A DNA stretch of 64,000 nt from an uncultured archaeon. Lineage in GTDB: Archaea; EX4484-52; JAADEF01. This document shows positions 17,196-62,480 of the stretch, piece after piece (the stretch's first letter is position 1; every line of letters begins with the position of its first letter). A program made the translations under genes and the position numbers. The notes beneath the pieces are model-generated. The model worked only from the letters and a program-made list of their open reading frames with translations. It was not told where the DNA came from and searched no databases. The stretch lies in assembly GCA_964407715.1 (NCBI GenBank), contig CAYOWP010000004.1, positions 1-64,000 of the forward strand. The letters are read 5' to 3'.

Positions 17196-17270
17196 CGAGC
17201 CCGAGGGGATTTGAACCCCTGACCTGCAGCTTAGGAGGCTGCCGCTCTAACCAAGCTGAGCTACGGGCCC
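17196..17270 (-). tRNA. tRNA-Arg (CCT)
   Basis: Cloverleaf GGGCCCG...CGGGCTC G; anticodon arm GCAGC-CT CCT AA-GCTGC; GGTTCAAATCC T-loop; CCA not encoded. Confidence 0.96.
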
Positions 17271-17287
17271 GTAACAACACAAGAAGA

Positions 17288-24012: not shown

Positions 24013-24060
24013 TTTAAAAATTTTTAGATTTTATCACCCAACAAGAGACTTCCTCATCAA

Positions 24061-24660
24061 AAGCCTTTGGAAAGTGATTTTCCCTGCGTTAACCAGTTAT
24101 TTTGATAAATATGGTTAACGGGAGAGAGAGCCATTTGAGAGAGCTGAGTATAGTATGATAGCCTTTGAAAGCAGTTAGGAAGCAACTAACCTTTAAAAGC
24201 GGTTAGCTGCTCTAAAATCTTTGTGTTAGTGATATCTTCCCGTTAACCAATTTTTTATTTTTAAAAATGGTTAAGGGGAAGTATACCTTCTCAAAGGATA
24301 TCTTACAGCAGCTAACCATTTCAAAGCAGTTAGGAAGCAGCTAACCTTTTAGGGAAGGTTACCATACTCCTAAGCCTTTGTGTTAGTGATATCTTCGCGT
24401 TAACCAATTTTTTATTTTTAAAAATGGTTAAGGGGAAAAATACCTCATCAAAGAATATCAAACAGCAGCTAACCTTAAATTGGGTTACTATGCTGTAAAA
24501 CCTTAGTTATAGTGATATCTTCGCGTTAACCAGTTATATTCAAATAAAAAACATGGTTAAATGGAAAACCTGACCATCTGAAAAACCATGGTAGAGCAGC
24601 TACCCAAAATAAATGGGTTAAGAAGCGAAAAGTTTCTGAAAAGGATAGTATGGAGCAACA
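24061..24660 (-). repeat. Tandem array A3 of modular palindromic units
   Basis: CGTTAACC at 24087, 24241, 24398, 24524 (spacing 154/157/126); 24219-24280 nearly identical to 24376-24437. Confidence 0.9.
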
Positions 24661-24668
24661 TGGATAGT

Positions 24669-24825
24669 GGCATTATCCAATCATTCTCCATTTGTTAAGC
24701 GGAAGAGTAACCTCTTAAAGAACCGCATTAAAGTAGCGAACCTTATAGAGCTGATGCGATTACCGCTATAAGTGCTATTTGCGCGTTAAATTTCCGCTTA
24801 ACAATAAAAAATTTTGGACAAAGCC
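24669..24825 (+). mobile_element. Short MITE-like element B1 (157 bp) abutting array A3
   Basis: Imperfect terminal inverted repeats GGCATTATCCAA...TTGTTAAGCGGAA / TTCCGCTTAACAA...TTGGACAAAGCC; co-linear with the elements at 47.7, 53.8 and 55.3 kb. Confidence 0.75.
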
Positions 24826-24910
24826 CTCAATGCCTAATGAAGAGTTAATATTTTAAATTTTTTGGTTTATATCTCTTATTTTTATTTTTATTTTAAGTTT
24901 ATGGAGGGAG

Positions 24911-26821: not shown

Positions 26822-27574
26822 ATGTCTCAACGAGTTATAGGGATTTTGTCAGGTAAAGGAGGAGTGGGAAAAACTGTCACATCTCTAAATCTTGGGTTGG
26901 CATTACATCAATTCGGAGAAGATGTTGTTGTAATAGATGCAGATATTACAGCTTCAAATTTAGGGTTGCATTTAGGAATGTACAATTTTCCGCATGGTCT
27001 TCAAGATGTATTAAATAATGATCTCGACATCGAAAAGGCAATGTATATGCATCATACAGGATTACGAGTAATACCAGCATCATTAGATATCTCATCTTTA
27101 AAGGCAGATATCTCACAATTAAAGAAGGTAGTGAAGGAAATCCCTGCAGAAATAATACTTATAGATGCTCCACCAGGCATAAATGAAGATGTATTGGCTG
27201 TGTTAAATGCATCAAAAGAAATTATGATCGTAACAAATCCTGACATTCCGACAGTTACAAATGCCATGAAGATTTCACGGGTATCAGAAAAATATAAAAG
27301 GCATGTTTCTGGTGTGATAGTTAATAGATACCTTGGAAATGCATATGAATTAAATATTGATGAGATTGAAATGATGATAGAATCACAAATATATGGTGTA
27401 GTACCTGAAGATCCTTATGTGAGAGAAAGTATTTATCAAAAAATTCCAATTGTGGCGTATAAACCTTTTAGTCCTGCATCAATAGCATTTAAACAGATTG
27501 CGGCTAAGATAATAGGTAAGGTATATAAACTCCCAAGATTTTATAGAATAAAAAGATTATTGGGATTAATATGA
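26822..27574 (+). CDS. minD: MinD/ParA-family ATPase (archaeal MinD-like)
   Basis: SGKGGVGKT deviant Walker A, VIDAD, IDAPPG, VIVNR, VPED; C-terminal amphipathic tail. Confidence 0.88.
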   Translation: MSQRVIGILSGKGGVGKTVTSLNLGLALHQFGEDVVVIDADITASNLGLHLGMYNFPHGLQDVLNNDLDIEKAMYMHHTGLRVIPASLDISSLKADISQLKKVVKEIPAEIILIDAPPGINEDVLAVLNASKEIMIVTNPDIPTVTNAMKISRVSEKYKRHVSGVIVNRYLGNAYELNIDEIEMMIESQIYGVVPEDPYVRESIYQKIPIVAYKPFSPASIAFKQIAAKIIGKVYKLPRFYRIKRLLGLI

Positions 27575-29952: not shown

Positions 29953-29964
29953 AAGTGATGTCAT

Positions 29965-32900
29965 ATGAGAACATGGAAAATCATGTTTTTGTTATTGTTT
30001 TCCCTTTATTTTATTGTATCTGAAATACATGCTTATAAAATTTATTTTGAAGTTCAAACATATGATAGGAAATATAACTTCTCAGATAAAGTAGTCCTTG
30101 ATGACTCAATAAATAACAAAATTTATTTTTATTTAAGGCAAGATGATGGAGAAGACAATATAACAAATATAACATTTTATCTTCCTGGAGATGTTACCTT
30201 CACAGGTAAAAATGATACTTCTCTTGGTGATGCAGCAGATTTTGGTGTAAATTCTTCCAATCAATCAATTGGGCAGTGGAATATAACAGATAGCACCCAA
30301 CTAAAAAATAGTTTTGGAAGTTTTTGGATGGAGGTTAATGTTCCTATAGATAAGGAAAAGGAATATACTTTCCAATTAAATATCACATATAAAAATAAAA
30401 GCGGGATCTTACGTAATTTCACATTGTGGGTTGATACTCTTTCTCCAAGGGATGTCAAAATAACAAAGGAAAATGATTATGAGTATTATAATATATCTGA
30501 AAACTTGATAGTGGAAGTCTCTTCCTATGATGCTTTATGGAACAAAACTATTCTTGCTGTAGTGTTTAAGAACTCAACAAATTATCCTTATTTACCTGAG
30601 AACACTACCTATTTCATATATGAAAATTCACATATAGAAAACTTTACATATGAGGTTCCAAGTAAGATAATTATCCTTAAGGATATCATAAATGGCACTA
30701 CGTATAATGTTCTTGTTAAAAAAATAGAGACATCATCAAACACATATTATATCATGTTAGGTAATTTCACTAATACCATAAATAATGAATGGTTTAATGG
30801 AGGTTTTGTGTATGATAAAGAAAATATCTCTCAATTTCTTTATATTATTAATTTTGACAAAGATCTTCTTATTAATAAAAGCGGAATATACTATGTGAAT
30901 GGCACTTCATTGCTTTTGGATTCTCACCAATTTGATTATCTCAATGTTAATCTAAGTTATGGTTTTGTCAATTTAAGTGGATTGCAAATAGCATATAGTA
31001 ATCTATCTTTTAATGTCTCATATGTTATTGAAAATACAACTCTTGTATTTAAACCTCTTTATGATGGAAATTACTCTGTATTTGTAGAGGTTTGGGATTT
31101 GTTCTCAAACACTTCCTCAGAAATATCATATGAAATAAATAACTCGCCTTTAGTGTCACCACCTACAGTATCTTTGGATATAGTTAACGGAACTAGGATT
31201 TTGGTAAATAAACCATTTCATTTTACTTTTACATTGGATGATGAGGCTCAAAATTCATCATGCTCCTTATATCTCAATAATAGTTTAGAAGATTCCATAT
31301 CTAATATAGGATCAGGAAAATATTCCCTTTCCTCTACACCAACACAAGCGAAATATTATGTGGTTAATATCACATGCATAAATGACTTTAAATTAAAAGG
31401 CGCTGATTTTAGAGAAATCTATGTTGAGGACAAACCAGATCTCAACTTGTCTTTAGTATCAATTTCACCATCTGCATATGGATTAAATGATGAGATAAAT
31501 ATCTCATATAATATAAGCAATTTGGGCTCCTCAAATGCAAATCAAGTTAATATCACATTCAAAGTATGCTCTGATTCCTCATGTACAAATATCTTACACG
31601 AAAAGTATACAGAAATCAATACGCTTTCCGCAGATGAGTATAAGATAGATTGGTTCAATTATACCATAAAGGATTCCTCTACTCTCTATATAAAAATGGA
31701 TGCTTATTCCAATGATACTGATTTTGATTATTCAAATCAAAACCTATCTCTTATTTTATCTCCAACAATTTCTATAAGTTATGCTGTATCAGAATCAACA
31801 GAGGATTTAAAACCTGGAAGTGATCTAACTATTTATGTAAATGTAGTTCACTATGATGGAACATATATCAGCGAGCTTAATGAAAATAACTTCACTATTT
31901 ATGATTATTGGCATTATATAGGGAAGTATAGAAATAAAACCAAAAATTTATATCTCATCAATAATTTTGGTAATGGGACATATAAATTTGCTTATACCTT
32001 GCCTAATATTTCCTCTAATGAGAAGTATTATGAGTTCGGTGCACATAAATTAATCTTAGAAGTTAGAACAAATAAATATAAGAAAATCAATACAACTGAA
32101 TTGAACTATGATATACAGGCTCCATTTGTTGAGCTTTATTTCAGTGATGTCCCTTCTAGTATGAAAGAAGGTGATAAAAAGACAGCATATATCAAAGCCA
32201 AAAACCTTGGAGATATGACGATTAACACAATTAAAATAACAATAAAAACATCCTCAACCTCAAAACTCACATTTAACGGAGATTCCTCTTATTCCTGCAA
32301 TATAACAGGATTAACTCCTGGAGATACTGAGTCATGTAGTTTTACCTTAAAGGCAGAAGATACGGGAGATGTGGAGATTTATGTAAGTTCATCTTCAAGT
32401 GATACATATTTCATCTTGGATAAGGCATACTCTAAGGATTATCCAGGTTTAGGAGGTAAAATATATTTCTATTCATATCCTGAAAAGGATATAGAAATAG
32501 AAGAAGAGCAAGAAAGTACAACACAGGAATCCTCAAGTGATGAAACAGAATCATCAGAGGAGACAGAAGAGAATGAAGAAACATCACAAACATCTACAAC
32601 AGAAGAAAGCAATAAAGTGAGTGAGATCAAAATTGAAATCCCTGAGAATGAATATTCATTTTTAATTAATGAGTCTAAAACAATTGAAATTAAAATAAAA
32701 AATATAGGAAACAAAACCGCATCTTCCTTATCCTTAGGATTAGAGTATGATAAGGAGAACCTAAATATTACTCATGACTTCAAAAAATCCTCTTTGGATC
32801 CTGGAAAAGAATATGTATTTCATTTGAATGTCTCATCTCCTACTCAACGAGTCGGAAAATATACAATAGCTATAACAGTTGTTTATGATAGCAATAAAGT

Positions 32901-33363
32901 AGCGGATGGGACATTAACCATTACTCTTTTACCTACAGAAAAAAAGAAAAAAGAGATAGAAGATATGTTAGAAAATATGAAATCTGAGATTGAAGAGTTG
33001 GATGTGCCAGAGGATATGAAAGCAGTATATGATCAAACAAAAAGATTTATTGAAGAAGCAGAGAATAAGATAAAAAATGGAGATTATGTATCCGCATATG
33101 CTTTATTAGAAAAAGCTCAAAAGAACATAAATGCAATAAAAATGTCTGCAACTTCAAAGGGAAAAAGCAAATGGTGGATATGGGTAATAGTAATACTTAT
33201 TATATTGGGAATCATAGGAGGAGTGGCTTATTATTTGCTTACACCTCCAACATCAACATATCATCCTGAAAAAGGATATTCATTCAATCCAAAGGTATAT
33301 GAGGAACAGAGAGCAAATTATATAAAGAGATTAAAAGAATCCCTTCAAAGAAAATTGAGTTAG
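29965..33363 (+). CDS. Large surface glycoprotein with CARDB domains, S/T/E linker and C-terminal TM anchor
   Basis: KPDL..ISNLG, KNLGD and KNIGN CARDB-like repeats; dense N-x-S/T sequons; acidic S/T linker at ~32500-32610; WWIWVIVILIILG anchor. Confidence 0.8.
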   Translation: MRTWKIMFLLLFSLYFIVSEIHAYKIYFEVQTYDRKYNFSDKVVLDDSINNKIYFYLRQDDGEDNITNITFYLPGDVTFTGKNDTSLGDAADFGVNSSNQSIGQWNITDSTQLKNSFGSFWMEVNVPIDKEKEYTFQLNITYKNKSGILRNFTLWVDTLSPRDVKITKENDYEYYNISENLIVEVSSYDALWNKTILAVVFKNSTNYPYLPENTTYFIYENSHIENFTYEVPSKIIILKDIINGTTYNVLVKKIETSSNTYYIMLGNFTNTINNEWFNGGFVYDKENISQFLYIINFDKDLLINKSGIYYVNGTSLLLDSHQFDYLNVNLSYGFVNLSGLQIAYSNLSFNVSYVIENTTLVFKPLYDGNYSVFVEVWDLFSNTSSEISYEINNSPLVSPPTVSLDIVNGTRILVNKPFHFTFTLDDEAQNSSCSLYLNNSLEDSISNIGSGKYSLSSTPTQAKYYVVNITCINDFKLKGADFREIYVEDKPDLNLSLVSISPSAYGLNDEINISYNISNLGSSNANQVNITFKVCSDSSCTNILHEKYTEINTLSADEYKIDWFNYTIKDSSTLYIKMDAYSNDTDFDYSNQNLSLILSPTISISYAVSESTEDLKPGSDLTIYVNVVHYDGTYISELNENNFTIYDYWHYIGKYRNKTKNLYLINNFGNGTYKFAYTLPNISSNEKYYEFGAHKLILEVRTNKYKKINTTELNYDIQAPFVELYFSDVPSSMKEGDKKTAYIKAKNLGDMTINTIKITIKTSSTSKLTFNGDSSYSCNITGLTPGDTESCSFTLKAEDTGDVEIYVSSSSSDTYFILDKAYSKDYPGLGGKIYFYSYPEKDIEIEEEQESTTQESSSDETESSEETEENEETSQTSTTEESNKVSEIKIEIPENEYSFLINESKTIEIKIKNIGNKTASSLSLGLEYDKENLNITHDFKKSSLDPGKEYVFHLNVSSPTQRVGKYTIAITVVYDSNKVADGTLTITLLPTEKKKKEIEDMLENMKSEIEELDVPEDMKAVYDQTKRFIEEAENKIKNGDYVSAYALLEKAQKNINAIKMSATSKGKSKWWIWVIVILIILGIIGGVAYYLLTPPTSTYHPEKGYSFNPKVYEEQRANYIKRLKESLQRKLS

Positions 33364-33382
33364 AATATAGGGAGATGAAACC

Positions 33383-34291
33383 ATGATAGAATATATTCTT
33401 TATATTATTGGGATATTCCTATCAACACTTGCTCTATATTTCACAGGCATTTTAAATGTTGATTTTTATGATATTTCTTCTCTTCTTTTTATTTATAAAT
33501 ATGTTGATTTAAAGATGGTATTGGCATTTGTCTTAATCTATGGATTATCGCTATCTTTTCTTTATTGGATAAAAATAAAAAATGAGAATCCAAAACTTAT
33601 GTTCTTAGCAAGTTTTGTTTCTTCTTTTCCATTTTTGATGCTTTCTTATTTTGTTTTTGATATTGGATGGTTTATATTGCTTATTGTGTGTACATTGGGC
33701 ATATCATATATCATTAATATGAATGTATTACGTGAAGAAAAAATATATAAAGTTATACCTTATGACAAACTCTCAGTTAAATTATTTAAGAATGTTTTAT
33801 CTTTATTTTTTATTATTTTTGCTTTATTCCTTGCATTTACATCATCATCAAGGGATAATTCTATATACATAAATAATCTAACATATCACATTGGAAAGAT
33901 AAATCTAACAGATATAACCAATTTAGAGAACAAAATTATATCTCTTCAAAGAAATTATGCTATAAACATAGCAAATGCAACCACTTTCATATTAATGAAT
34001 GAAATATTTAATGATAACTCGCTCTCATATAACACCAAGGTCCAGTGTTTAAGAGCAATAGACTCAAATCGAGAAAATGTGTTAGATAAGATTGATAGAG
34101 AAATATCAAGGAATGCTTCAAACAATATTGGGCAATTTGAAGATATCTCTGGGGTTGTTGAGATATCAATAAAAGCATATCCTATCATAATAGGACTTTA
34201 TGTATATGTGTTATTGGGTTTCACTTTCTTTTTTATATCTTTTGCCTCTCAGGTATTAGTTAAAATATATAAGTTAGTATATCATAAATAA
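33383..34291 (+). CDS. Multi-pass membrane protein
   Basis: About six hydrophobic helices. Confidence 0.7.
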   Translation: MIEYILYIIGIFLSTLALYFTGILNVDFYDISSLLFIYKYVDLKMVLAFVLIYGLSLSFLYWIKIKNENPKLMFLASFVSSFPFLMLSYFVFDIGWFILLIVCTLGISYIINMNVLREEKIYKVIPYDKLSVKLFKNVLSLFFIIFALFLAFTSSSRDNSIYINNLTYHIGKINLTDITNLENKIISLQRNYAINIANATTFILMNEIFNDNSLSYNTKVQCLRAIDSNRENVLDKIDREISRNASNNIGQFEDISGVVEISIKAYPIIIGLYVYVLLGFTFFFISFASQVLVKIYKLVYHK

Positions 34292-34297
34292 AAGTAT

Positions 34298-34789
34298 ATG
34301 ATGCCCTCAACAGAATGTTTAAGTGATGAAGAAAAGATATCCTATTATCTAAGCCACGTAAAAAAACCTGTGTTATTATTTATTGGATTTCCTTTTTCAG
34401 AGATAAAAAAATTTGAATCTCATGCAAAGGTAATATATCTCATTGGAGATTTAAAAGAGAAAAAATCTTGCAAAAAAATAAGTGCATTTTCCTCTATGGA
34501 TGATTTTATCAATAATTTTACATCTCTTGATGCAAAGATAACACATATATTTGCTTATTATATTGGATGGGATCAAATAAAAAACCAACTTCCTCCAAAA
34601 TTTACTCTTAATAACTCAAAACTCTATCTCTTTATAAAAGTGCCATTTGAGAAATGGAAATCTTTTATTGATAAGGATAGATATTTGATTGAGAATACCT
34701 TAAGTGATTATAACCTCAAATTTGATGATATTATCTCATCAAATAAAGAAAATTATTTTTATGGTGTTTTTGCAAAGGTGAAAGGATGA
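34298..34789 (+). CDS. Hypothetical protein
   Basis: ORF tightly packed in the co-directional cluster. Confidence 0.6.
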   Translation: MMPSTECLSDEEKISYYLSHVKKPVLLFIGFPFSEIKKFESHAKVIYLIGDLKEKKSCKKISAFSSMDDFINNFTSLDAKITHIFAYYIGWDQIKNQLPPKFTLNNSKLYLFIKVPFEKWKSFIDKDRYLIENTLSDYNLKFDDIISSNKENYFYGVFAKVKG

Positions 34790-35466
34790 ACTTTAAAGGA
34801 ATGTCTCCTTTATTATCTGGAGTGCTTTACATGACAATCATAGTTACAGGTATTTTGATAGTGATGGCATCCATTTATCCAAAAATAATGGATTTAAAGG
34901 AATACTCAAAAATAACAAATACAATAAAATGTGCTAGGAACATGGATTATGCTTTGTCTCTTTTAGAAAAATCATCTCTTAGAGGAGAACAGGAAATAGA
35001 ATGTAAAATAAAAAATGCAAAGTTGTCAATTAAAAATGACACTATGCTTTTTATATTTCCACATATTGATTATTTATCTCTTGACATATTCAAAAATGAA
35101 GAATATACGTTAAATGAAGGTGTTTATGTCTATGATAATGGAAGTTATTTTCTTATGGGAAACAAATACTTAGAAGTTAATTTTTCAAAGATATATGCCA
35201 ATAACATGATAAATATCTCGCAAATTATAAATAACATATATTATAAAAAGACTTCTAAAAATATTGATGGCTCCTCTTTATATTTCATATTAAATGATGA
35301 TCCCTCTATAAGCATAGGTAGAGGATATACGATAGCTGAGCGCTCTGGAGCATATCTAAAATATGGAAAAATAATTGCTCATGTGGAAAATGATAACGCT
35401 AAATATAATTTAACCTTTATTCTATATCCCTCGGCAGATTATATTATTATCTCTGTGGAGAGTTAA
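34786..35466 (+). CDS. Type IV pilin-like protein (class III signal peptide)
   Basis: MNFKG|MSPLLSGVLYMTIIVTGILIV matches the archaeal K-G cleavage motif followed by a hydrophobic helix. Confidence 0.75.
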   Translation: MNFKGMSPLLSGVLYMTIIVTGILIVMASIYPKIMDLKEYSKITNTIKCARNMDYALSLLEKSSLRGEQEIECKIKNAKLSIKNDTMLFIFPHIDYLSLDIFKNEEYTLNEGVYVYDNGSYFLMGNKYLEVNFSKIYANNMINISQIINNIYYKKTSKNIDGSSLYFILNDDPSISIGRGYTIAERSGAYLKYGKIIAHVENDNAKYNLTFILYPSADYIIISVES

Positions 35467-35501
35467 AAGTATATATTTAACAAATATCTAATAAAATATT
35501 T

Positions 35502-36722
35502 ATGATGTTAAAAAGAAAAGGAACAGAATCTTTTTTTTATGTGTTGTTAGCAGGTTTGGGAATTTTTATACTGATAGCTATAATCTCATTAAGTATTGAT
35601 TATGTGGAAGTAGAGCATCCAGAGGAAGAGATTCCATATCTCCTTAATAAAAAAGGCATAGCCGATACAATCAAAGAGAACAAGATATATTATTTTGATA
35701 AGTTTCTATTTAAATCCTTAGGTAATGTAGAGGAGAATAAAAGGACAATTTATATTGGAGATAAAAACATAGGAAATGTCCTGGCATATGGTGTAGTTAG
35801 AGAGAAACCCAAAATAGAGATATATAATGGATTGTTTGGTAAGAAAAATGAAATAATTTATTTTAGCACATATAATGCAAAAAAGGTTAGAATCTCTTTT
35901 GTTGTTAACAGAACAAACAGATATGGAAGATTGATCCTAAAATTTAATGGAAAAGAAATATTCAGGAACCTAACATATGAAGGAGAGAGAATATTGGTTG
36001 AGATTGAAAAAGGAATAAAAAATAAAAATGTTTTGGAAATTATGTGTGAATCATCTCTACCAAAAATATGGGCTCCAACAAAGTATGAGATAACAAACTT
36101 AAGAATTGAAGCATTGGATTATATATCAAAGGATGCTTACATAGAATTTGAGATTCTTCCAGAAGAATATCAAGGATTACGCTATGTTGAAATCAAATTT
36201 AATGTATTGGATACAAATGAATATGCTCCTCTCTCTTTTATAGTAAATGGAAAAAAGGTATTTGAGGATGTATTTGATGCTGGTGCAGAGCCATATAGAG
36301 TATGGTTATATAGAAAGGACAATCTTAAACCAGGAATAAATGTTCTAAGAATGGAAACATATAACTCATCATATTATGACCTCCTAAATGTAGAGATTAA
36401 CATATATTATATAGGAAATGCACATGTATATGTGGATGAGAGTAATTTCAATATAAATCCTGATGATTATGAGTTTATAGAAAAGAATAAGGATATTTTA
36501 GAGGGAGTTATCGAAATCAACACAAGAAGCATAAATCTTGATAAGGGCATAGTTTTCTATATTAATGGTGCTCGATACACTATCAGCAACTTAAGGAGTT
36601 ATGCATCAAATTATCTCACATTTGATGTTGATCTCCTTAGAAAAGGTGTAAATTATCTGAGATGGGAAACACAAGGAAATTATGAGATAAAAGATATCAA
36701 GATAGGAGTTAGGAAAAAGTGA
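35502..36722 (+). CDS. Putative class III signal-peptide protein with repeated beta-sandwich modules
   Basis: KRKG|TESFFYVLLAGLG; three similar segments (FNG/VNG/ING ... KNVL/INVL/VNYL). Confidence 0.65.
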   Translation: MMLKRKGTESFFYVLLAGLGIFILIAIISLSIDYVEVEHPEEEIPYLLNKKGIADTIKENKIYYFDKFLFKSLGNVEENKRTIYIGDKNIGNVLAYGVVREKPKIEIYNGLFGKKNEIIYFSTYNAKKVRISFVVNRTNRYGRLILKFNGKEIFRNLTYEGERILVEIEKGIKNKNVLEIMCESSLPKIWAPTKYEITNLRIEALDYISKDAYIEFEILPEEYQGLRYVEIKFNVLDTNEYAPLSFIVNGKKVFEDVFDAGAEPYRVWLYRKDNLKPGINVLRMETYNSSYYDLLNVEINIYYIGNAHVYVDESNFNINPDDYEFIEKNKDILEGVIEINTRSINLDKGIVFYINGARYTISNLRSYASNYLTFDVDLLRKGVNYLRWETQGNYEIKDIKIGVRKK

Positions 36723-36728
36723 TATGCT

Positions 36729-37148
36729 ATGAGTGAAAAAAAACTTACATGTCCTGTTGAAGGATGCAACAATGAAGTATATCTTGAGATGATAGATGGT
36801 GAATTATATTGGATTGATAAGATGAATCCATTACAACATAGAGGTAAAGTAATGGAATTACCTTCTCCAAAAAGGGAGCTTTTTTTGGGATATGCATATG
36901 AAAAGGGAATATTAAAAAAGGATAGCGAAAAAAAAGATCAAATAATACAATACACAACTCAGAATATGAAAGTCCCCGTGGATAGCAAACAACACATCCC
37001 ATATGATGCAGCGCTACTTTTTCTTATAGGCATCATATATATAATCTTCTCCTTTATGCCATTTAATGAGTTTTCAAGCTCTCTTTTATATTTATTAGGT
37101 GGTTTCTTTATGATATTAGGCATTGTGGAGTATTTTTCACTTTATTAG
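36729..37148 (+). CDS. Small membrane protein with N-terminal CPxxxC motif
   Basis: CPVEGC; two C-terminal TM helices. Confidence 0.6.
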   Translation: MSEKKLTCPVEGCNNEVYLEMIDGELYWIDKMNPLQHRGKVMELPSPKRELFLGYAYEKGILKKDSEKKDQIIQYTTQNMKVPVDSKQHIPYDAALLFLIGIIYIIFSFMPFNEFSSSLLYLLGGFFMILGIVEYFSLY

Positions 37149-37156
37149 ATTAAAGT

Positions 37157-39004
37157 TTGGTGAATAGCATGATTAACATACTTTTTATAACCACGCTTTT
37201 TTTGGGATGGATGCTAAAATATATTGGATATGATACTCATTATTTTGTACTTTTAATCTTGTTCATAATTGCTTATGGTATATTCTATATAGGTATAAAA
37301 GAAAACAAACAAAAAAGATTTTTGGTTTATGTTTTGTCTTCAAGTTTTATAATTGTTGTGTTGTGGGTATTGGAGTACTTTGAAATCTTATCTCTATCTA
37401 TATATGACTCGCTCTTGTTATCTTTTTCTATATATTTGGCTGGAAGTATTGTTTCAAAACAAAAAAATGAGATAATAACAATTTTTTTAACAATCATTTT
37501 CATAGGTGCTTTTATCTTTTATGTGCCAAACATATCCTTGGCAGAGATATATGGGGGAGATTTAACACATCTTGATAACACCTTACAGAAGCTCCCTTTT
37601 ATTGAAAGGGTAAAGGAAGGTTACAACATATTGATTCAGAGCTTAAAAAATATGACATATTATGAGGATCTTGATTATCCTTCTGGTGCATCTAAGGAAA
37701 AGGAAAAAATAAGAGAATCTGTGAAAAAAGAGATAGATGATATTGTACATCTTGATATTTCCCCTTCCTCAATATCTCAAAAAGGAGATACGAAAAGCAT
37801 TGTCTCGCTCTCTGCAAATAATCTCTTAAAAGATAGATATGCGAGAAATGTATATGTTGGTATGGATGTTGGAAGTGAGGGAAGAATGTATGGTCTTGAT
37901 GTGAATAGTGAAGAAGGATTCTGCTATGAAAATAATAAGAATTGCTATAGTGCAATAGACACAATACCTCCACAAGGATTTGCACCTGCTCTATTCGAGA
38001 TCATGCTTCCCCCATGTAAGAATGATTTTAATGCAGAAATTTATACAAAATATATCACTACAGCAATTGGTGAAAAGGTAATATTTGTAGATAAGGGAGA
38101 ATATAGAGATACTATATCATCAGAAGGTCCATTAACATTGGATATTGAACTTCTTCCAAAGAGACTTACATATCCAGGAGAGGGAGACATGAAATTCATT
38201 ATCAATATCTACTCATTGCTTAATAGCAATCAGTTTGAGAATCAACATGCATATTACAAATATTTATTTCTTTCTATTCCAAAAGAGATAAATCTTGAAA
38301 GGGATTCAACATATTGTCCTTATCAAAAATATAGAGAGGAAGGAGGAAATACAATATATCTTTTTGAAATCAGAGATGAACTTCAATGCTTTGATAAAAA
38401 TACTATTGGAGTGTTAACATGTAAAGCACAAATACCTGAAGAGAGGGTTGATGAGTTTATAAAAGGATATAAGACATTTAGAGTTTATGTACCATATATA
38501 TTTTATGGATCTTTTCCTTATAAAATAGAAACAATAAGTGATAAAGAATGTGAGAATGTCTTTAAGAAAAACACATTTGGATTGAGTGATGTAGAGTTTT
38601 TAAATAAAAGAGGATATTTAATCTCCTTCAGAAAAACATATAATGAAAAGGAAACAATAAACTTAGAAGATTTAGTAAGCGAGATGATAGATTTTTGTCA
38701 TAATATCTTTGAAGGATCTTTTTCTGATCATGAATGTGCTTATGTTGTATTAAAAGGATATAAAGGAAAATTAAACATAGATTCATCAAGGTTCTCAAAG
38801 AGTTCAAAAGATAAGGATAAAGTTGTGTTACAAAAAGATAGTTCCTTAGATGATATCTTATCTAACTTGGAAAAGATATATGGAAATGAAATGGAAAAAG
38901 ATGTGGAAATAATAAACAATTATGATGGTGAAGGAGATCTAAGTATAGATGTAAAATATAAATTTGATTGTAGAGGTGGTAAAATAGTGGTTATCTTTGA
39001 ATGA
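37157..39004 (+). CDS. Membrane protein with large Cys-containing extracellular region
   Basis: About five N-terminal TM helices followed by a beta-rich domain; start may be 37169. Confidence 0.7.
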   Translation: MVNSMINILFITTLFLGWMLKYIGYDTHYFVLLILFIIAYGIFYIGIKENKQKRFLVYVLSSSFIIVVLWVLEYFEILSLSIYDSLLLSFSIYLAGSIVSKQKNEIITIFLTIIFIGAFIFYVPNISLAEIYGGDLTHLDNTLQKLPFIERVKEGYNILIQSLKNMTYYEDLDYPSGASKEKEKIRESVKKEIDDIVHLDISPSSISQKGDTKSIVSLSANNLLKDRYARNVYVGMDVGSEGRMYGLDVNSEEGFCYENNKNCYSAIDTIPPQGFAPALFEIMLPPCKNDFNAEIYTKYITTAIGEKVIFVDKGEYRDTISSEGPLTLDIELLPKRLTYPGEGDMKFIINIYSLLNSNQFENQHAYYKYLFLSIPKEINLERDSTYCPYQKYREEGGNTIYLFEIRDELQCFDKNTIGVLTCKAQIPEERVDEFIKGYKTFRVYVPYIFYGSFPYKIETISDKECENVFKKNTFGLSDVEFLNKRGYLISFRKTYNEKETINLEDLVSEMIDFCHNIFEGSFSDHECAYVVLKGYKGKLNIDSSRFSKSSKDKDKVVLQKDSSLDDILSNLEKIYGNEMEKDVEIINNYDGEGDLSIDVKYKFDCRGGKIVVIFE

Positions 39005-40036: not shown

Positions 40037-40057
40037 TCAATTGCAATGTGAGCTTCT

Positions 40058-40750
40058 CTAACACAACTTTTTAGATGTTATCTCGCCTGTTAACCATAAT
40101 TTGTTGAAAATGGTTAACGGGAAGAAATCGCTCTTCCAAAGCTTTGCGGCGGGATATCCTTTTTTGAAGGTTAGGTGCTTCACAACCGCTTTGAAATGTT
40201 AGCTGCTCTTATGTGTTTTCTTAGAGGGTTAGGTTTCCCGTTAACCAATTTTTTATTGAGAAGATTATGGTTAACGGGAAGAAATCGCTATCACAAAAGT
40301 TTTTTTGAGTGCGCTATCCTCTTTTAAAAGGTTATCTGCTTCCTAACCGGTTTATTAGGTTAGCTGCTCTTATGTGCTTCATTAAGGTGACATCTTCCCG
40401 TTAACCAATTTTTTATTGAGAAGATTATGGTTAACGGGAAGAAATCGCTATCACTAAGGCTTCGCAGCATGCTAACCTTTATCAAGGGTTAGCTGCTTCC
40501 AAACCGCTTTAAAAGGTTAGCTGCTCTTATGTGTTTTCTTAGAGGGTTAGGTTTCCCGTTAACCATATTTTTATTGAGAAGATTATGGTTAACGGGAAGA
40601 AATCGCTCTTCCAAAGCTTTGCAGCATGCTAACCTTTATCAAGGGTTATCTGCTTCCAAACCGCTCTGAAAGGTTAGCTGCTGTAATATGCTTCATTAAG
40701 ATGACCTTTACCCTTTAATCAACTTTAAAAAAGAAATGTCTTGATAACGC
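40058..40750 (+). repeat. Tandem array A4 of ~158-bp modular palindromic units (best conserved)
   Basis: GGTTAACGGG at 40112, 40269, 40429, 40587 (spacing 157/160/158); 40235-40294 identical to 40395-40454. Confidence 0.93.
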
Positions 40751-47556: not shown

Positions 47557-47730
47557 AAATAAAATGAAGTTTTAGTGTATGCATATCTTTTACTATCCAC
47601 AATTCTATGCACAATGATGCACTGAAATGACTATCATAATGAAAAAATATAATTGTTGTTCCCTCTAAAGTCGAACATCAAAAGATAAGAGATATCGCGG
47701 AAAGAGTTGAGGAGGTGTTAAGTAAATGAT

Positions 47731-47972
47731 AGCATTGTCCAATAATTCTCTATTAATAAAATTTTGTTAAGCGGAAACATAATCTATCAAAGAAGCGCAT
47801 TAGAGCAGCAAACATTATAGAGCTAATGCGATTGTAAGAGCAAATTTTCTCGTTAACAAATCCTTATTAAAAAATTATTGGACAATTTGTTAATAGGAGG
47901 CATAGCCATATTCAACGGGTTAACTGCTCTAATGCGCTTCTGCGAGAGGTTATGTTTCTGCTTTACAATGCC
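47731..47972 (+). mobile_element. MITE-like element B2 (242 bp) with 9-bp target-site duplication
   Basis: Ends AGCATTGT.../...ACAATGCC; flanked by GTAAATGAT at 47722-47730 and 47973-47981; internal AATTATTGGACAAT and an inverted partial copy at 47923-47972. Confidence 0.85.
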
Positions 47973-48029
47973 GTAAATGATGTTAATGAAGTTTAAATTT
48001 AAAAGTTTTTCTAAAAAGAATATTTCCTT

Positions 48030-49097
48030 ATGCAATCATATGAATGGTCAAAAGAGAAATATTATAGTTTTCTGTTGGATAATGAGTGTATAGGTTTTCA
48101 TGAACAAGGCATAAAGTTGAAATCAGGAAGATTGTCTCCATTTTATGCAAACCTTAGGATATTAACAGACACTACTGAAAAAGCAAAGGAGTTGGCATCT
48201 TATATCATTAATTTTTCAAAAGATAAAGGAATCATAGATGATCCTAATATCCTTTTTTATGGTGTTCCTGAGGGTGCAACAAAAGCAGGGTTTTTTGCAC
48301 AACTACAACTTATCCAAAACTATAAGATGGCTCAACCATATATCTTGAGTGATAATACCTCTTTTAAAAACCAACCACTTCTATATCCGCTTTCACACCT
48401 TGAAGCTATAGCATCTTTAATACTTGATAGATTAGAAAAGGAAAAGCTTGAGATTAAAGCAATTGATACGATTTATGGTGATCCAAAAACCATTTATCGA
48501 GAGGTGTCTTTGTTATTAGGAGCAAAATGCTATGAGAAATATAAGAAAGATTATTATCTCGTTTTAGGAAGGATAAAACCAAAAAGCCATGGCCTGGCTC
48601 GTGATAGATACTTCATAGGAAAACCAAAAGGAAATGTGCTTATATTAGCACATAATGAGCAAAGAGCTGAAGAATTGGAAAAACAAGTTAGAGAAATAGA
48701 AGATATTAAGCAAATATATAAAGTTGTTATTAATGCAGAGATGCATTATCATAAGCCATCAATACCTGCTTATAATATCATACTCATAGAGGATGTAACC
48801 ACAACAGGTGGTTCTGCAATTAAAGAAGTTAAGAACATGCTTTCCATGGGCTTCTCAGTTAAGGGGGTTATAGCGTTATTTAACAGGAATGAGATAAACG
48901 AGGAAGGCACAACAATAGAGGAAGAGCTTAATAAGTTGGGTGTTTCTTATTATGCCATGGCTAATGCACTTGATTTGCTTCCTGAGGCTGCTAAGAGAAA
49001 GAAGATAGATAAAGAGATGATAGAAAAAGTGATTTCATATTATAAAAAATATGGTGCTCATGATAAAGAAGGAATAAGAAAAATCCCAATTTTTTAG
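48030..49097 (+). CDS. pyrE: Orotate phosphoribosyltransferase (elongated)
   Basis: LKSGRLSPFY, YGVPEGA, R.KPKSHG, ILIEDVTTTGGS; adjacent to pyrF. Confidence 0.85.
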   Translation: MQSYEWSKEKYYSFLLDNECIGFHEQGIKLKSGRLSPFYANLRILTDTTEKAKELASYIINFSKDKGIIDDPNILFYGVPEGATKAGFFAQLQLIQNYKMAQPYILSDNTSFKNQPLLYPLSHLEAIASLILDRLEKEKLEIKAIDTIYGDPKTIYREVSLLLGAKCYEKYKKDYYLVLGRIKPKSHGLARDRYFIGKPKGNVLILAHNEQRAEELEKQVREIEDIKQIYKVVINAEMHYHKPSIPAYNIILIEDVTTTGGSAIKEVKNMLSMGFSVKGVIALFNRNEINEEGTTIEEELNKLGVSYYAMANALDLLPEAAKRKKIDKEMIEKVISYYKKYGAHDKEGIRKIPIF

Positions 49098-53026: not shown

Positions 53027-53785
53027 TTATTCTATAAACATCTTTATCTCTCCATTATTCCATTTTCTTATTATCTCCTTTGATGCTCTTTCTAAATCTT
53101 CTTCACCATTACTTAAATAAAACTTTCTTCTTATAGCATATTCCCTTAATATATCCGTTGGCTCTTTTGATGCAATGTTCTTTATCTTTAGTAGCTCCTC
53201 AAGGTTATTCTCATATCTCTTAGAATATTCAAGTAACAACAAAGCATGCTTAAGACATTCCTGTTTTTCAGGATTAACATTTCCTCTAAATACAATGAAA
53301 TCCTCTGGCTTTTTAGCATTTATTATTCCTGCGGTATCTATGAGTAAGATATCCTCTTTAAGCTTTATCCATTGATACTTTTTTGTATAAGCTGGTAAAG
53401 GAGATGTCTTAGCTTTTTGTGATCTTGTTAAGAGATTTATAAGAGAGGACTTTCCAACATTTGTGTATCCTATAATCCCAACCTTAACTTTTTTGGTTCC
53501 TGTGGTTTTCTTAACTTTATGTGATAAGAGATATATTAGCTTTTTAACGCTATTTACTCCCTTTCTTTCTTTATATGAGGCATATGCTGTAGGAAAAGGC
53601 AATGATTTAAGCTTTTTCTCTAATTTTGATTTCTCAACCAAATCGCATTTCATTGCTACAATCATCAATAATTTCCCTTTATTCACTATTCTTTTTTCTA
53701 ATGGTTCACATCTAGTAAAATCTATTGCTCTACTATCCACAACCTCTATAATTATATTGCTCTCATTTATTATTCTATTTATCAT
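53027..53785 (-). CDS. Circularly permuted GTPase (YlqF/RbgA/Nug1-like)
   Basis: EVVDSR, KCDL before GYTNVGKSSLIN, then DTAG. Confidence 0.88.
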   Translation of the reverse strand: MINRIINESNIIIEVVDSRAIDFTRCEPLEKRIVNKGKLLMIVAMKCDLVEKSKLEKKLKSLPFPTAYASYKERKGVNSVKKLIYLLSHKVKKTTGTKKVKVGIIGYTNVGKSSLINLLTRSQKAKTSPLPAYTKKYQWIKLKEDILLIDTAGIINAKKPEDFIVFRGNVNPEKQECLKHALLLLEYSKRYENNLEELLKIKNIASKEPTDILREYAIRRKFYLSNGEEDLERASKEIIRKWNNGEIKMFIE

Positions 53786-53814
53786 AATTAGATAACTCTA
53801 AAAGAAATTTTAAA

Positions 53815-54190
53815 AGCATTGTCCAATAATTCTTTGTTGTTAAGCGGAAAAGTAACCTCTTAAAGAAGCGCATTAAAGTAGCGAACCTTGTAGAGCTAAT
53901 GCGATTTAAAAGGTTAGCTGCTTTATTGCCTTTTGAGAAGGTACATCTCTAACCTCTCGTTAAAGATTAGCTGCTCTGATGTGTGTTGTTGATGTGGTAT
54001 GCTTCCTGTTAACCATGTTTTATTAAAAACATAGTTAACGAGAAAATATCTTCATTCACTCATGGAATGCAGCATGTTAATCTTTCGTTAAATGTTAGTT
54101 GCTTCATAACCATTATAAAGAGTTAGCCGCTATAAGTGCTATTTGCGCGTTAAATTTCCGCTTAACAATAAAGAATTATTGGACAATACC
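53815..54190 (+). mobile_element. MITE-like element B3 (~375 bp) with ~35-bp TIRs containing array-type modules
   Basis: GCATTGTCCAATAATTCTTTGTTGTTAAGCGGAAA versus reverse complement GTATTGTCCAATAATTCTTTATTGTTAAGCGGAAA (2 mismatches in 35); internal GTTAAC hairpin at 54008-54039. Confidence 0.88.
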
Positions 54191-54517: not shown

Positions 54518-55276
54518 TTATATTTTTCGTATTATATTTAGGAGTTGTTGTAATATATTAGGGAATGTCTCTCTCCGTATTTTATAATACATCTCTTTGA
54601 ATTCCTCTATCAACTCTGGATTAGAGGAATCTCTATCATATAAATTCCAAACACATGGTGGTAATACAAGATATTTATTATATAATGAGATTGAATGTGC
54701 TACCCTATCAAAATAGCTTAAATCTTCATCAATATAAGCAAAATAAATATTCATAATATGAGGTGATTTCATCTTAAAATATTCCATAAAAATATATCCT
54801 CCTGTGATGATAAACGATTTCTTACTCTCTTCATTAAGCTCATCAAAACTTCTTACTCTTTCACCAAAGTAAATTATATTTACTTTATCGAAAGCTCTTA
54901 TGAATTTCTTCTTAGGTGTTTTCTCTATATCTTTGTTTTTTAGCCATATTGCAAGATTAATATATTTTTCTTTTCCTTTTCTTTTTACTCCATCTATTTC
55001 CACACAACTGTATTTTATATCTTTCCTTTCAAGGATTTCCTTAACTCTTGGTTCTAATTCTTCCTCATACTCTCCAAGAATGAATGCTGCAGAGCCATCT
55101 ATAGATTTTTTAGCTGCATAAGAGAAAATCTCTTCATAAAGCTTATCAGAAATATCTATTTTAATATCTGCACATACTCTTATCATAGGTTTTTCAAAAT
55201 TCTTTATCTTCTTATATATCAGATCAACCATATCCCTATACTCAATTATGACTTTGACATCATCATGAGTGTTCAT
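54518..55276 (-). CDS. Hypothetical protein
   Basis: Long ORF with host-like composition; start uncertain; lies between two B elements. Confidence 0.65.
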   Translation of the reverse strand: MNTHDDVKVIIEYRDMVDLIYKKIKNFEKPMIRVCADIKIDISDKLYEEIFSYAAKKSIDGSAAFILGEYEEELEPRVKEILERKDIKYSCVEIDGVKRKGKEKYINLAIWLKNKDIEKTPKKKFIRAFDKVNIIYFGERVRSFDELNEESKKSFIITGGYIFMEYFKMKSPHIMNIYFAYIDEDLSYFDRVAHSISLYNKYLVLPPCVWNLYDRDSSNPELIEEFKEMYYKIRRETFPNILQQLLNIIRKI

Positions 55277-55323
55277 ATGCCAATTTATTATTTTAGAAAA
55301 CTTTAAAAACATTACTCATAAAT

Positions 55324-55451
55324 GGCATTGTCCAATAATTCCCTATTAACAAAATTTGTTAAGCGGAAAAATAGCCTTTTAAAGAAGCGCATCAGAGCAG
55401 CAAAGCTTATTGAGCTAAGCGATTGTAGGAGCAAATTTTCTCGTTAACAAA
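55324..55451 (+). mobile_element. Truncated MITE-like element B4
   Basis: GGCATTGTCCAATAATT left end; co-linear with 47731-47860; right TIR not seen. Confidence 0.78.
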
Positions 55452-55498
55452 ACAAAAAATAATAAAATAAAAAAAGATTTTTCTTTTAAAATTTGCGG

Positions 55499-61802: not shown

Positions 61803-62480
61803 ATGCATATAAAGAACATCTCAAAAAACCTGATAAAAATAAACAACAAACATTATGCCACATTATCAAAAAAGGAAGGATATAATGTATATGGAGAGAG
61901 AATAATAAGATATAAGAATAGAGAATATCGCATATGGAATCCAACAAAATCAAAATTAGGTGCTGCTTTACACAATAAAATTCCAATAAACATAATCAAG
62001 AAGATAGAATCTTCAAATTATATTTTATACTTAGGTATTGCCAATGGCACAACAGCATCTCATTTAGAGGATCTAAATCCAAATGCTATGATATTTGGTG
62101 TTGAAATTAGTCCAAGAAGCATCATTGATCTCGTTTATATGATAAAAAAGAGGAAAAGCAATATCATTCCAATATTGGAGAATGCAGCACATCCATTAAG
62201 ATATTCCTTTATGGTTGCAAAATCTGATATTCTATATGTGGACATTGCGCAACCCCACCAAACAGATATTGCATTAAGAAATGGAGAGCTATTCTTGAAA
62301 AAAGGAGGTTTGTTATTTCTTGCAATAAAAACGAGATCCATAGATATAAAAAAGAAGCCTGTTGAAATTGTTAAAAAAGAAATAGAAAAAATAGAATCTT
62401 ATGGATATGAGATTAGTTTTAGCACTATGCTGGATCCCTATGAAAGAGATCATGGATTTGTAGTAGCAATAAAAAAATAA
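61803..62480 (+). CDS. flpA: Fibrillarin-like rRNA 2'-O-methyltransferase
   Basis: VYGER, YRIWNP.KSKLGAA, LYLG.ANGTT.SH, DIAQP.Q, LDPYERDH motifs. Confidence 0.95.
   Translation: MHIKNISKNLIKINNKHYATLSKKEGYNVYGERIIRYKNREYRIWNPTKSKLGAALHNKIPINIIKKIESSNYILYLGIANGTTASHLEDLNPNAMIFGVEISPRSIIDLVYMIKKRKSNIIPILENAAHPLRYSFMVAKSDILYVDIAQPHQTDIALRNGELFLKKGGLLFLAIKTRSIDIKKKPVEIVKKEIEKIESYGYEISFSTMLDPYERDHGFVVAIKK

What the first reader, a model, noticed from the sequence alone, without database searches (positions are those of the whole stretch)
47722..47981. Perfect 9-bp target-site duplication indicates the repeat superfamily is transposable
Seen: GTAAATGAT directly flanks both ends of the 242-bp element (AGCATTGT...ACAATGCC). 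The interior of B elements aligns with the array unit: GTTAAGCGGAAAAGTAACCTCTTAAAGAAGCGCATT..AGTAGCGAACCT at 53839 versus GTTAAGGGGAAAATGTCCTCTTAATGAAGCACATT..AGCAGCTAACCT at 17003. Established: GGCnnTGT ends occur in the IS903 group (IS5 family, 9-bp duplications), IS6 and some IS1595 elements. Inference: a non-autonomous element mobilised by a DDE transposase in trans seeds the palindromic arrays. B2 also looks nested, with an inner TIR at ~47873-47886.
Basis: partly seen in the sequence, partly recalled or inferred. Interest (0 to 1): 0.75.

Follow-up and report, generated by a model that had tools for sequence, protein, structure and literature searches.

The report
MITE-like palindromic repeat in an archaeon
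A 242-base non-coding palindromic repeat in an uncultured archaeon sits between two perfect copies of a 9-base sequence, the footprint a cut-and-paste transposon leaves, so it is most likely an ordinary miniature transposon of a family not seen elsewhere.

Summary
GTAAATGAT occurs twice in the window, at 47722-47730 and 47973-47981, abutting a 242-nt element (47731-47972) that ends AGCATTGT...ACAATGCC. The left end is a terminus of a four-copy "B" family with sharp ends and an 18-nt terminal inverted repeat, GGCATTGTCCAATAATTC. Five ends match within 3 mismatches, against 0.19 expected.

A 9-mer recurring at exactly such a terminus has P about 1.3e-5. The generic pattern of a 9-mer repeat plus an 8-nt inverted repeat is not rare: 5 in the window against 2.4 per simulation.

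- **Reading:** a MITE-like element inserted by a transposase making 9-bp staggered cuts. The repeat matches the IS903-group end (IS102) at 14 of 18 in-register positions, and that group makes 9-bp duplications.
- **Duplications:** only 1 of 3 complete copies shows one (B1 3/9, B3 6/9).
- **B2 right end:** it keeps just 8 nt of the repeat.
- **Transposase:** none among 51 window ORFs.
- **Other genomes:** no copy in 185,579 reference genomes. No empty site could be examined.
- **Arrays:** the related 157-nt tandem arrays lack these ends and probably grew by recombination.

It is a new member of a known kind, of modest interest.

The parts
47722..47730 (+). Left copy of the 9-bp direct repeat GTAAATGAT (putative target-site duplication). 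It contains an ATG 8 nt downstream of a GGAGGTG ribosome-binding motif at 47711.
47731..47748 (+). Left terminal inverted repeat of B2, AGCATTGTCCAATAATTC (17 of 18 to the family consensus)
47731..47889 (+). Complete B-type unit (about 159 nt) with left and right arms. Its own right repeat is at about 47869-47889, with the last 3 nt TTG instead of GCC or ACC.
47890..47972 (-). Extra inverted copy of a left-type arm. It is 84% complementary to 47764-47813 over 50 nt and keeps only the 8-nt tip GGCATTGT (47965-47972, minus strand). About 27 nt of subterminal repeat are missing.
47973..47981 (+). Right copy of the 9-bp direct repeat GTAAATGAT
24669..24825 (+). B1: complete 157-nt B unit, ends GGCATTATCC... 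and ...GGACAAAGCC. The 9-nt flanks match at 3 of 9, so there is no duplication. It sits 20 nt from the end of an array.
53815..54190 (+). B3: 376 nt, about 2.5 array-type units capped on both sides by B-type repeats (17 of 18 each). The AT-rich flanks match at 6 of 9.
55324..55455 (+). B4: perfect left repeat and left arm, 89% identical to B2 over 129 nt. The right terminus is lost.
40043..40721 (.). Largest tandem array of the related 157-nt period unit: units of about 137 nt bounded by TGGTTAAC...GTTAACCA, plus AT-rich spacers of 15-24 nt across the arrays. Other arrays are at 4914-5459, 16876-17137 and 24058-24648.

Best explanation
B2 is a non-autonomous, MITE-like element of a lineage-specific family (B). 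A transposase supplied in trans recognises the 18-nt terminal inverted repeats, cuts the target with a 9-bp stagger and joins the element in. Repair of the gaps duplicates GTAAATGAT.

The repeat sequence and the 9-bp length point to an IS5-family, IS903-group-like DDE transposase as the most likely partner. I put about 0.35 on that sub-claim.

B2 is a composite: one complete unit of about 159 nt plus an inverted, internally deleted left-type arm. The outer pair of tips was either used together, or the interior was rearranged after insertion.

Shown:
- the repeat and its position at the family terminus;
- the terminal inverted repeat family;
- the resemblance to the IS102 end.

Inferred:
- transposition itself;
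- the identity of the enzyme;
- the order of events inside B2.
For: 1. There is a perfect 9/9 direct repeat immediately outside both tips. It has only two copies in the window, and P = 1.3e-5 for that position.
2. Family homology stops exactly at the tip in 4 left and 2 right ends with unrelated flanks. Five ends match the 18-mer within 3 mismatches, against 0.19 expected.
3. There is no coding capacity. ORFs lying wholly within B2 reach at most 20 aa; the longest overlapping it are 32 aa (ending in the right repeat copy) and 60 aa (minus strand, running into the right flank).
4. In-register matches to the 18-bp end of IS102 (1057 bp, IS903 group, pSC101) across the eight B ends are 14 (B4 left), 13 (B2 left, B3 left, B3 right), 12 (both B1 ends) and 10 of 18 (B2 inner right, B2 outer right). 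IS1A gives 9 and 7 of 18. The IS6 consensus gives 8 of 14 (passage in PMC6807381).
5. Nine of 9 IS903-group elements in Table 2 of PMC3281130 make 9-bp repeats. IS903B also makes 9-bp repeats (PMC9769513).
6. Removing 47731-47981 in silico places the orphan GGAGGTG motif (47711) 8 nt upstream of the ATG of a 38-aa ORF (47977-48093). Seven other GGAGGTG motifs sit 4-9 nt upstream of the start of an ORF of 40-342 codons.
Against: 1. Only 1 of 3 complete copies has a duplication: B1 3/9, and B3 6/9 in AT-rich flanks, which is not significant. B4 cannot be scored.
2. B2's outer right end shares only 8 nt with the repeat. Five of those 8 (ATTGT) could come from ordinary interior homology.
3. The generic repeat-plus-inverted-repeat pattern is not rare: 5 observed against 2.4 per simulated window.
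4. Fourteen of 18 to one insertion sequence is weak evidence when thousands of IS ends exist. A near-identical 18-mer (the IS102 end shifted by one base) with up to 4 mismatches hits random AT-rich sequence about 1.2 times per window.
5. No transposase domain was found in 51 window ORFs, and 12 ORFs have no Pfam family.
6. No copy exists in 185,579 species genomes, plasmids or phages. There is therefore no second genome and no empty site.
7. Copies are 70-89% identical, so the family is old and may no longer move.
Confidence: 0.6

Rival explanations
1. The element is mobile by a DDE transposase of another family that also has GGnnnTG ends, such as archaeal IS6-like or IS1-like, rather than an IS903-group enzyme.
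For: GGnnnTG is shared by the IS6 and IS1 families (passage in PMC6807381). Archaeal IS6-type elements are common, and one (ISPfu5) is recorded with a 9-bp duplication (Table 5, same call). One IS6 element in PMC3281130 Table 2 also has 9 bp.
Against: The B repeat matches the IS6 consensus at only 8 of 14 positions and IS1A ends at 9 and 7 of 18, against 14 of 18 for IS102. IS6 duplications are 8 bp where recorded, in most entries seen.
Confidence: 0.2
2. The B and A repeats are not transposons. They are palindromic modules spread and reshaped by recombination, slippage and gene conversion. The 9-bp repeat around B2 is then a by-product of such a rearrangement, or chance.
For: - Arrays have a constant 157-nt period and spacers conserved between loci.
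- B3 joins B arms to array units at shared GGTTAGC motifs with no duplication.
- B1 and B3 lack clear duplications.
- B2's right end is atypical.
- The generic pattern occurs by chance about 2.4 times per window.
Against: - Recombination does not explain unrelated flanks abutting identical 18-nt tips at five ends.
- It does not explain an exact 9-mer at exactly those tips (P about 1.3e-5).
- GTAAATGAT is not part of any other copy.
- The apparent similarity of the right flank to the repeat body is not significant: 1518 of 5000 shuffles and 1105 of 7068 intergenic 23-mers score as well.
Confidence: 0.15
3. The repeats are hairpin elements moved as single-stranded DNA by an HUH/Y1 transposase. 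This would make them REP/BIME elements with a RAYT partner, or an IS200/IS605-derived palindrome-associated element.
For: - Folding as single-stranded DNA is strong: B2 -49.4 kcal/mol with z -7.2, and an array unit z -4.9.
- The units form mosaic clusters in intergenic DNA.
- IS200/IS605 is the commonest IS family in archaea (abstract and passages of PMC13343696).
Against: From established knowledge, recalled and not tested here, these enzymes insert without a target duplication and need subterminal hairpins rather than terminal inverted repeats. B has 18-nt terminal repeats and B2 has a 9-bp duplication. No Y1 transposase or TnpB domain was found in 51 ORFs.
Confidence: 0.08
4. The units are genes for a structured non-coding RNA or a regulatory element, kept by selection and not mobile.
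For: The units fold well. Two B copies lie 11 and 29 nt from gene starts.
Against: No Rfam family matches at the gathering threshold or at E up to 1. In an alignment of 15 units only the terminal stem is conserved, with 2 of 9 pairs showing a compensatory change and a covariation term of +0.25. The interiors vary (mean column identity 64%).
Confidence: 0.05

Closest known systems
[quoted passage not shown]
   Same: Small (157-376 nt), non-coding, multicopy, intergenic and strongly palindromic. The element has an 18-nt terminal inverted repeat, and B2 has a 9-bp flanking direct repeat within the 2-10 bp range given for MITEs (passages in PMC11602168 and PMC10969869).
   Different: No partner insertion sequence is known. 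A duplication is seen in only 1 of 3 complete copies. The family has no match in 185,579 reference genomes. The host is an uncultured DPANN-like archaeon.
IS903 group of the IS5 family (IS903, IS102)
   Same: The 18-bp terminal repeat starts GGC. IS102 GGCTTTGTTGAATAAATC and B GGCATTGTCCAATAATTC match at 14 of 18 positions in register. Both show a 9-bp target duplication.
   Different: B has no transposase gene and is 157-376 nt rather than about 1050 nt. The known members seen here are bacterial. One search found no paper in the held library treating archaeal IS903-group members. The similarity is a lead, not proof of membership.
BrickBuilt MITE of Porphyromonas gingivalis (a MITE containing a minisatellite)
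   Same: It has tandem repeats between small inverted-repeat ends and lies in intergenic DNA (abstract of PMC4596501). B3 likewise carries about 2.5 tandem units between B-type ends.
   Different: The BrickBuilt repeat is 23 nt without spacers. Here the unit is 157 nt, itself palindromic, and also forms arrays that lack the mobile ends.
MJRE1-3 palindromic repetitive elements of Methanocaldococcus jannaschii (Suyama, Lathe and Bork 2005)
   Same: They are palindromic repeat families in an archaeon. Their abundance and mainly extragenic location are recalled from the abstract. Only the title and citations were seen.
   Different: The paper is not held, so the sequences could not be compared. 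The host here is not closely related to M. jannaschii. Its fibrillarin scores no better against the M. jannaschii chain 1fbn (166 bits) than against the other archaeal chains (172-177 bits), and the best aligned match shares only about half its residues.
REP/BIME clusters of enterobacteria
   Same: They are mosaic clusters of palindromic units in intergenic DNA (recalled; named as a separate class in PMC2229807).
   Different: REP units are about 35 nt and lack terminal inverted repeats and duplications. No RAYT was seen here.

Membership tests
MITE | Short and without coding capacity | tested here: met
   Elements are 157-376 nt. ORFs lying wholly within B2 reach at most 20 aa. Longer ORFs that overlap it (32 and 60 aa) run into the flanks.
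MITE | Terminal inverted repeats of at least 10-15 bp | tested here: met
   Five ends lie within 3 mismatches of the 18-mer, against 0.19 expected. The exception is B2's outer right end, which keeps only 8 nt.
MITE | Target-site duplication flanking the copies | tested here: inconclusive
   B2 9/9, B3 6/9 (AT-rich), B1 3/9. B4 cannot be scored.
MITE | Multiple dispersed copies with unrelated flanks | tested here: met
   Four loci in 64 kb. The three left-flank comparisons against B2's left flank scored no better than shuffles.
MITE | An autonomous element with the same ends supplies the transposase | not testable with these tools
   No transposase domain in 51 window ORFs. The rest of the genome is not available. 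The genome scan looked for the MITE pattern, not a full IS.
MITE | Presence/absence polymorphism (empty sites) | not testable with these tools
   The flanking-gene scan found no relative.
IS5 family, IS903 group (as source of the ends) | Terminal repeat of about 18 bp resembling GGCTTTGTTGAATAAATC | tested here: inconclusive
   Ten to 14 of 18 in register across eight B ends. The six canonical ends score 12-14. This beats IS1A (9 and 7 of 18) and the IS6 consensus (8 of 14), but about 1.2 chance hits at up to 4 mismatches occur per window.
IS5 family, IS903 group (as source of the ends) | 9-bp target duplication | tested here: met
   B2 has 9 bp. The group norm is 9 bp in 9 of 9 listed elements.
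IS5 family, IS903 group (as source of the ends) | DDE transposase of this group in the same genome | not testable with these tools
   None in the window. No other sequence of this genome is available.
IS6/IS26 family (as source of the ends) | 14-bp repeat GGTTCTGTTGCAAA and 8-bp duplication | tested here: not met
   Eight of 14 positions match, and the duplication is 9 bp rather than 8. Rare 9-bp records exist.
REP/BIME-RAYT or IS200/IS605-derived elements | No target duplication, no terminal inverted repeats, HUH transposase nearby | tested here: not met
   B has 18-nt terminal repeats and B2 a 9-bp duplication. No Y1 transposase domain in 51 ORFs.
Known RNA families (Rfam 15) | Match to a covariance model | tested here: not met
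   Only three tRNAs were found, at the gathering threshold and at E up to 1.
MJRE elements of M. jannaschii | Sequence similarity to MJRE1-3 consensus | not testable with these tools
   The paper is not held and no M. jannaschii sequence was fetched.

The most novel reading that the evidence does not exclude
One 157-nt palindromic module exists in two states in a small-genome, DPANN-like archaeon. In the first state it is capped by IS903-like terminal repeats and mobile (B). In the second it is uncapped and amplified into tandem arrays (A), with B3 caught in between as a capped 2.5-unit array. On this reading a miniature transposon would be turning into satellite-like arrays that now fill 41% of the intergenic DNA and sit against promoters.
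Probability: 0.25. Interest if true: 0.5.

Novelty: new member of a known kind. Interest (0 to 1): 0.3.

Why it matters
If the reading is right, this uncultured archaeal lineage carries, or once carried, an active IS5/IS903-like transposase and a private MITE family. Most archaeal phyla show low insertion-sequence content in the recent survey (PMC13343696, passages seen).

The related units occupy 3005 nt, which is 4.7% of the window and 41% of its intergenic DNA. Two copies abut gene starts, so they may shape transcription.

The capped array B3 offers a concrete model for how tandem palindromic arrays arise from a mobile unit. None of this is surprising in kind, since MITEs with duplications are well known in bacteria and archaea.

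Tried and rejected
1. **Orthologous or empty sites.** The search for related loci with the 355-aa flanking protein gave 66 pattern hits, none a relative.
2. **Copies in other genomes.** A pattern matching 4 of 4 window left ends had 0 matches in the genome collection.
3. **Plasmids and phages.** Distant blastn of 47722-47981 found no match.
4. **Known RNA family.** Rejected.
5. **A longer, degenerate right arm.** I tested whether the right copy of GTAAATGAT is really part of a degenerate arm reaching about 47990, which some alignments suggest. The similarity is not significant: 1518 of 5000 shuffles and 1105 of 7068 intergenic 23-mers score as well.
6. **Shared right flanks of B1 and B2** (TAATGAAG...TTTAAATTT). 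The signal is weak (9 of 500 shuffles, or 1 of 500 with the tips included). These are probably similar archaeal promoter boxes. I did not take them as part of the element.
7. **The 264-aa ORF between B3 and B4 as a transposase.** The repeats face the wrong way and there is no Pfam hit.
8. **Conserved interior structure by covariation.** Only the terminal stem survives.
9. **Literature text search for the repeat sequence.** Zero papers.
10. **The MJRE paper.** Not held.

Full report
**The observation**

GTAAATGAT lies at 47722-47730 and 47973-47981. These are the only two copies on either strand of the window. Between them is a 242-nt segment (47731-47972) that begins AGCATTGT and ends ACAATGCC.

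The repeat finder reports:
- the 9-nt pair at 251-nt spacing;
- a 50-nt inverted repeat, 47764-47813 against 47919-47968, 84% complementary;
- an inner inverted repeat, 47734-47756 against 47864-47886, 87% complementary.

**The family**

Four B-type copies lie in the window:

| Copy | Coordinates | Length | Note |
|---|---|---|---|
| B1 | 24669-24825 | 157 nt | complete |
| B2 | 47731-47972 | 242 nt | composite |
| B3 | 53815-54190 | 376 nt | capped array |
| B4 | 55324 to about 55455 | about 132 nt | right terminus lost |

Their homology stops sharply at an 18-nt terminal inverted repeat, GGCATTGTCCAATAATTC. Five ends match it within 3 mismatches (24669+, 47731+, 53815+, 54190-, 55324+). Dinucleotide shuffles give 0.19 expected, and 0 of 100 shuffles reach 5. 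The B1 right end and the B2 inner right end are more diverged (4 mismatches each by my own count). Left flanks compared with B2's do not align better than shuffles.

**Anatomy of B2**

- 47731-47889 is a complete unit. It is colinear with B1 (71.5% over 165 columns) and with B4 (89% over 129). Its own right repeat ends ...GGACAATTTG.
- 47890-47972 is an inverted copy of a left-type arm.
- At the outer right end only the 8-nt tip GGCATTGT is kept. The next base already corresponds to the interior, AAAGCAG against AAGCGG.
- A deletion of about 27 nt between short TTGT/ATTGT repeats would give this. That is inference.

As single-stranded DNA the whole folds into one long hairpin: -49.4 kcal/mol, z = -7.2, 0 of 200 shuffles as stable.

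**Is the 9-mer more than chance?**

- The probability of this 9-mer at one fixed position is 1.3e-5, and the left position is fixed independently by the family terminus.
- The bare pattern is common. Any 9-mer direct repeat 60-3000 nt apart with an 8-nt inverted repeat just inside (up to 1 mismatch) occurs 5 times in the real window. It occurred 244 times in 100 first-order Markov simulations, or 2.4 per window. The evidence is the coincidence with family ends, not the pattern itself.
- I tested the alternative that the right 9-mer belongs to a longer, degenerate arm. One BLAST alignment to B1 runs to 47988. The flank's similarity to the repeat body is reached by 1518 of 5000 shuffles and 1105 of 7068 real intergenic 23-mers, so I rejected it.

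**Duplications at the other copies**

| Copy | Left flank | Right flank | Match |
|---|---|---|---|
| B1 | ATGGATAGT | CTCAATGCC | 3 of 9 |
| B3 | AATTTTAAA | TTTTTAAAA | 6 of 9, AT-rich, not significant |
| B2 | GTAAATGAT | GTAAATGAT | 9 of 9 |
| B4 | — | — | no right end |

So 1 of 3 complete copies has a clear duplication. Copies are 70-89% identical, so old duplications may have decayed. B1 also abuts an array. Even so, this is the main weakness.

**Circumstantial support**

A GGAGGTG motif at 47711 lies 8 nt upstream of the ATG inside the left 9-mer, and the frame runs only 14 codons into the element. With 47731-47981 removed in silico, the same motif and ATG head the 38-aa ORF 47977-48093. 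Of the 14 other GGAGGTG motifs in the window, 7 sit 4-9 nt upstream of the start of an ORF of 40-342 codons and 7 lie inside genes.

**Which enzyme?**

- No transposase, integrase or HUH domain was found in 51 ORFs scanned with Pfam, and 12 ORFs have no family.
- I fetched IS102, the IS903-group element of pSC101. It is 1057 bp with perfect 18-bp ends GGCTTTGTTGAATAAATC.
- In register from the first base, the eight B ends match it as follows: B4-left 14 of 18; B2-left, B3-left and B3-right 13 of 18; both B1 ends 12 of 18; the two atypical B2 right ends (inner and outer) 10 of 18.
- IS1A ends from E. coli K-12 match the B consensus at 9 and 7 of 18.
- The IS6/IS26 consensus GGTTCTGTTGCAAA matches at 8 of 14 by my count (passage in PMC6807381). 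That paper also notes that GGnnnTG is shared with IS1.
- All 9 IS903-group elements in Table 2 of PMC3281130 have 9-bp direct repeats (passages). IS903B made a 9-bp repeat in PMC9769513 (figure legend).

Two independent features therefore point to an IS903-group-like transposase. The match is still weak. In 20 simulated windows, a near-identical 18-mer (the IS102 end shifted by one base) matched at up to 4 mismatches 1.2 times per window, and thousands of IS ends exist.

**Relation to the arrays**

Tandem arrays with a 157-nt period lie at 4914-5459, 16876-17137, 24058-24648 and 40043-40721.

- Each unit is about 137 nt, bounded by TGGTTAAC...GTTAACCA, with AT-rich spacers of 15-24 nt that resemble each other between loci.
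- A profile of 12 array units plus the B1 core found only seven intergenic loci. These include B3 (E 7e-12 and 1e-11), B4 (1.4e-3) and B2 (0.014). B1 (E 1.9e-11) was part of the profile, so its hit is by construction. The "superfamily" is real.
- B3 is about 2.5 array-type units capped by B-type repeats. Its junctions fall in shared GGTTAGC motifs, with no duplication. This fits unequal recombination between B and A units.
- Outside B3, no array carries a B-type end.

"The arrays are seeded by the mobile element" is therefore possible but not shown, and the direction of descent is unknown. In an alignment of 15 units only the terminal stem is conserved (9 pairs, 2 with a compensatory change, covariation term +0.25). 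No Rfam family matches. I see no case for a structured RNA.

**Host and distribution**

- The window encodes archaeal housekeeping genes: CDC48, aIF5B, eIF-6, prefoldin, fibrillarin, PCNA and NurA.
- Its aIF5B has relatives at 76, 68, 65 and 64% identity, then about 45-55%. The few named ones are metagenome-assembled Nanohaloarchaeota, Aenigmarchaeota and DPANN-group archaea.
- Fibrillarin scores almost equally against all archaeal PDB chains (166-177 bits for the top eight), and the best aligned match shares about half its residues.
- The flanking-gene scan found no relative.
- A pattern matching 4 of 4 window left ends had 0 matches in 185,579 species genomes.
- Plasmid and phage collections gave nothing.

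The family is lineage-specific as far as can be seen. No empty-site or second-genome test was possible.

**Comparison with the known**

- MITEs with terminal repeats and 2-10-bp duplications are widespread. They were reported in 58.5% of bacterial and 20% of archaeal genomes (passages in PMC11602168).
- They are known in several archaea (PMC10969869).
- A MITE holding a minisatellite (BrickBuilt) has been described (abstract of PMC4596501).
- Palindromic repeat families are on record for M. jannaschii (Suyama et al. 2005). I saw only its citations, and the paper is not held.
- A text search for the repeat sequence found no paper.

**Verdict**

The transposon reading is the best explanation for B2 (confidence about 0.6), with an IS903-like partner as the leading but unproven candidate. 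The extension to the whole superfamily is not supported. This is a new member of a known kind, of modest interest.

Noticed in passing
window 4914-5459, 16876-17137, 24058-24648, 40043-40721: Tandem arrays with a 157-nt period. Units of about 137 nt are bounded by TGGTTAAC...GTTAACCA and separated by AT-rich spacers of 15-24 nt. Together with the B copies they make up 3005 nt, which is 4.7% of the window and 41% of its intergenic DNA.
   Followed up: partly
window 53815-54190: B3 is a capped array of about 2.5 array-type units between B-type terminal repeats. The junctions fall in shared GGTTAGC motifs, which suggests unequal recombination between B and array units.
   Followed up: partly
window 55313-55341 and 53786-53832: The B4 tip lies 11 nt, and the B3 tip 29 nt, upstream of the start codons of minus-strand ORFs (54518-55312 and 53027-53785). 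Their promoters must therefore lie inside or right at the edge of the elements. An AT-rich TTTTAAAA box abuts the B3 tip.
   Followed up: no
window 47711-47730 and 47977-48093: An orphan GGAGGTG motif sits 8 nt before the ATG in the left 9-mer. Without the element it would serve a 38-aa ORF that overlaps the start of the 355-aa gene in another frame.
   Followed up: partly
window 24826-24870 and 47973-48010: The right flanks of B1 and B2 share TAATGAAG and TTTAAATTT (9 of 500 shuffles score as well). This may reflect similar BRE/TATA promoter boxes or a target preference.
   Followed up: partly
window 13724-15390 (minus strand): An adjacent gene pair: DUF4411 (166 aa) and an HTH plus M78/IrrE-like peptidase (386 aa). 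It looks like a toxin-antitoxin or defence-type module.
   Followed up: no
window 27571-39004: A run of eight same-strand ORFs. Two are large (793 and 1132 aa, with CarboxypepD_reg and CARDB domains) and six have no Pfam family. This may be a surface or secreted protein cluster.
   Followed up: no
window 17138-17271: A tRNA-Arg(CCT) gene (17195-17271, minus strand) lies 57 nt from the end of the array at 16876-17137.
   Followed up: no
window 24644-24668: GGATAGT occurs twice, 18 nt apart, immediately left of the B1 tip. Its origin is unexplained.
   Followed up: no
window 5540-7336 and 61803-62480: The host is poorly represented in public data. The nearest aIF5B is 76% identical, and fibrillarin scores almost equally (166-177 bits) against all archaeal PDB chains. 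The named neighbours are DPANN-type MAGs.
   Followed up: partly
window 1840-1883: A 9-nt tandem repeat (TGGAGGTTA, 4.9 copies) lies inside the 921-aa DUF2341 ORF. It encodes a glycine-rich stretch.
   Followed up: no
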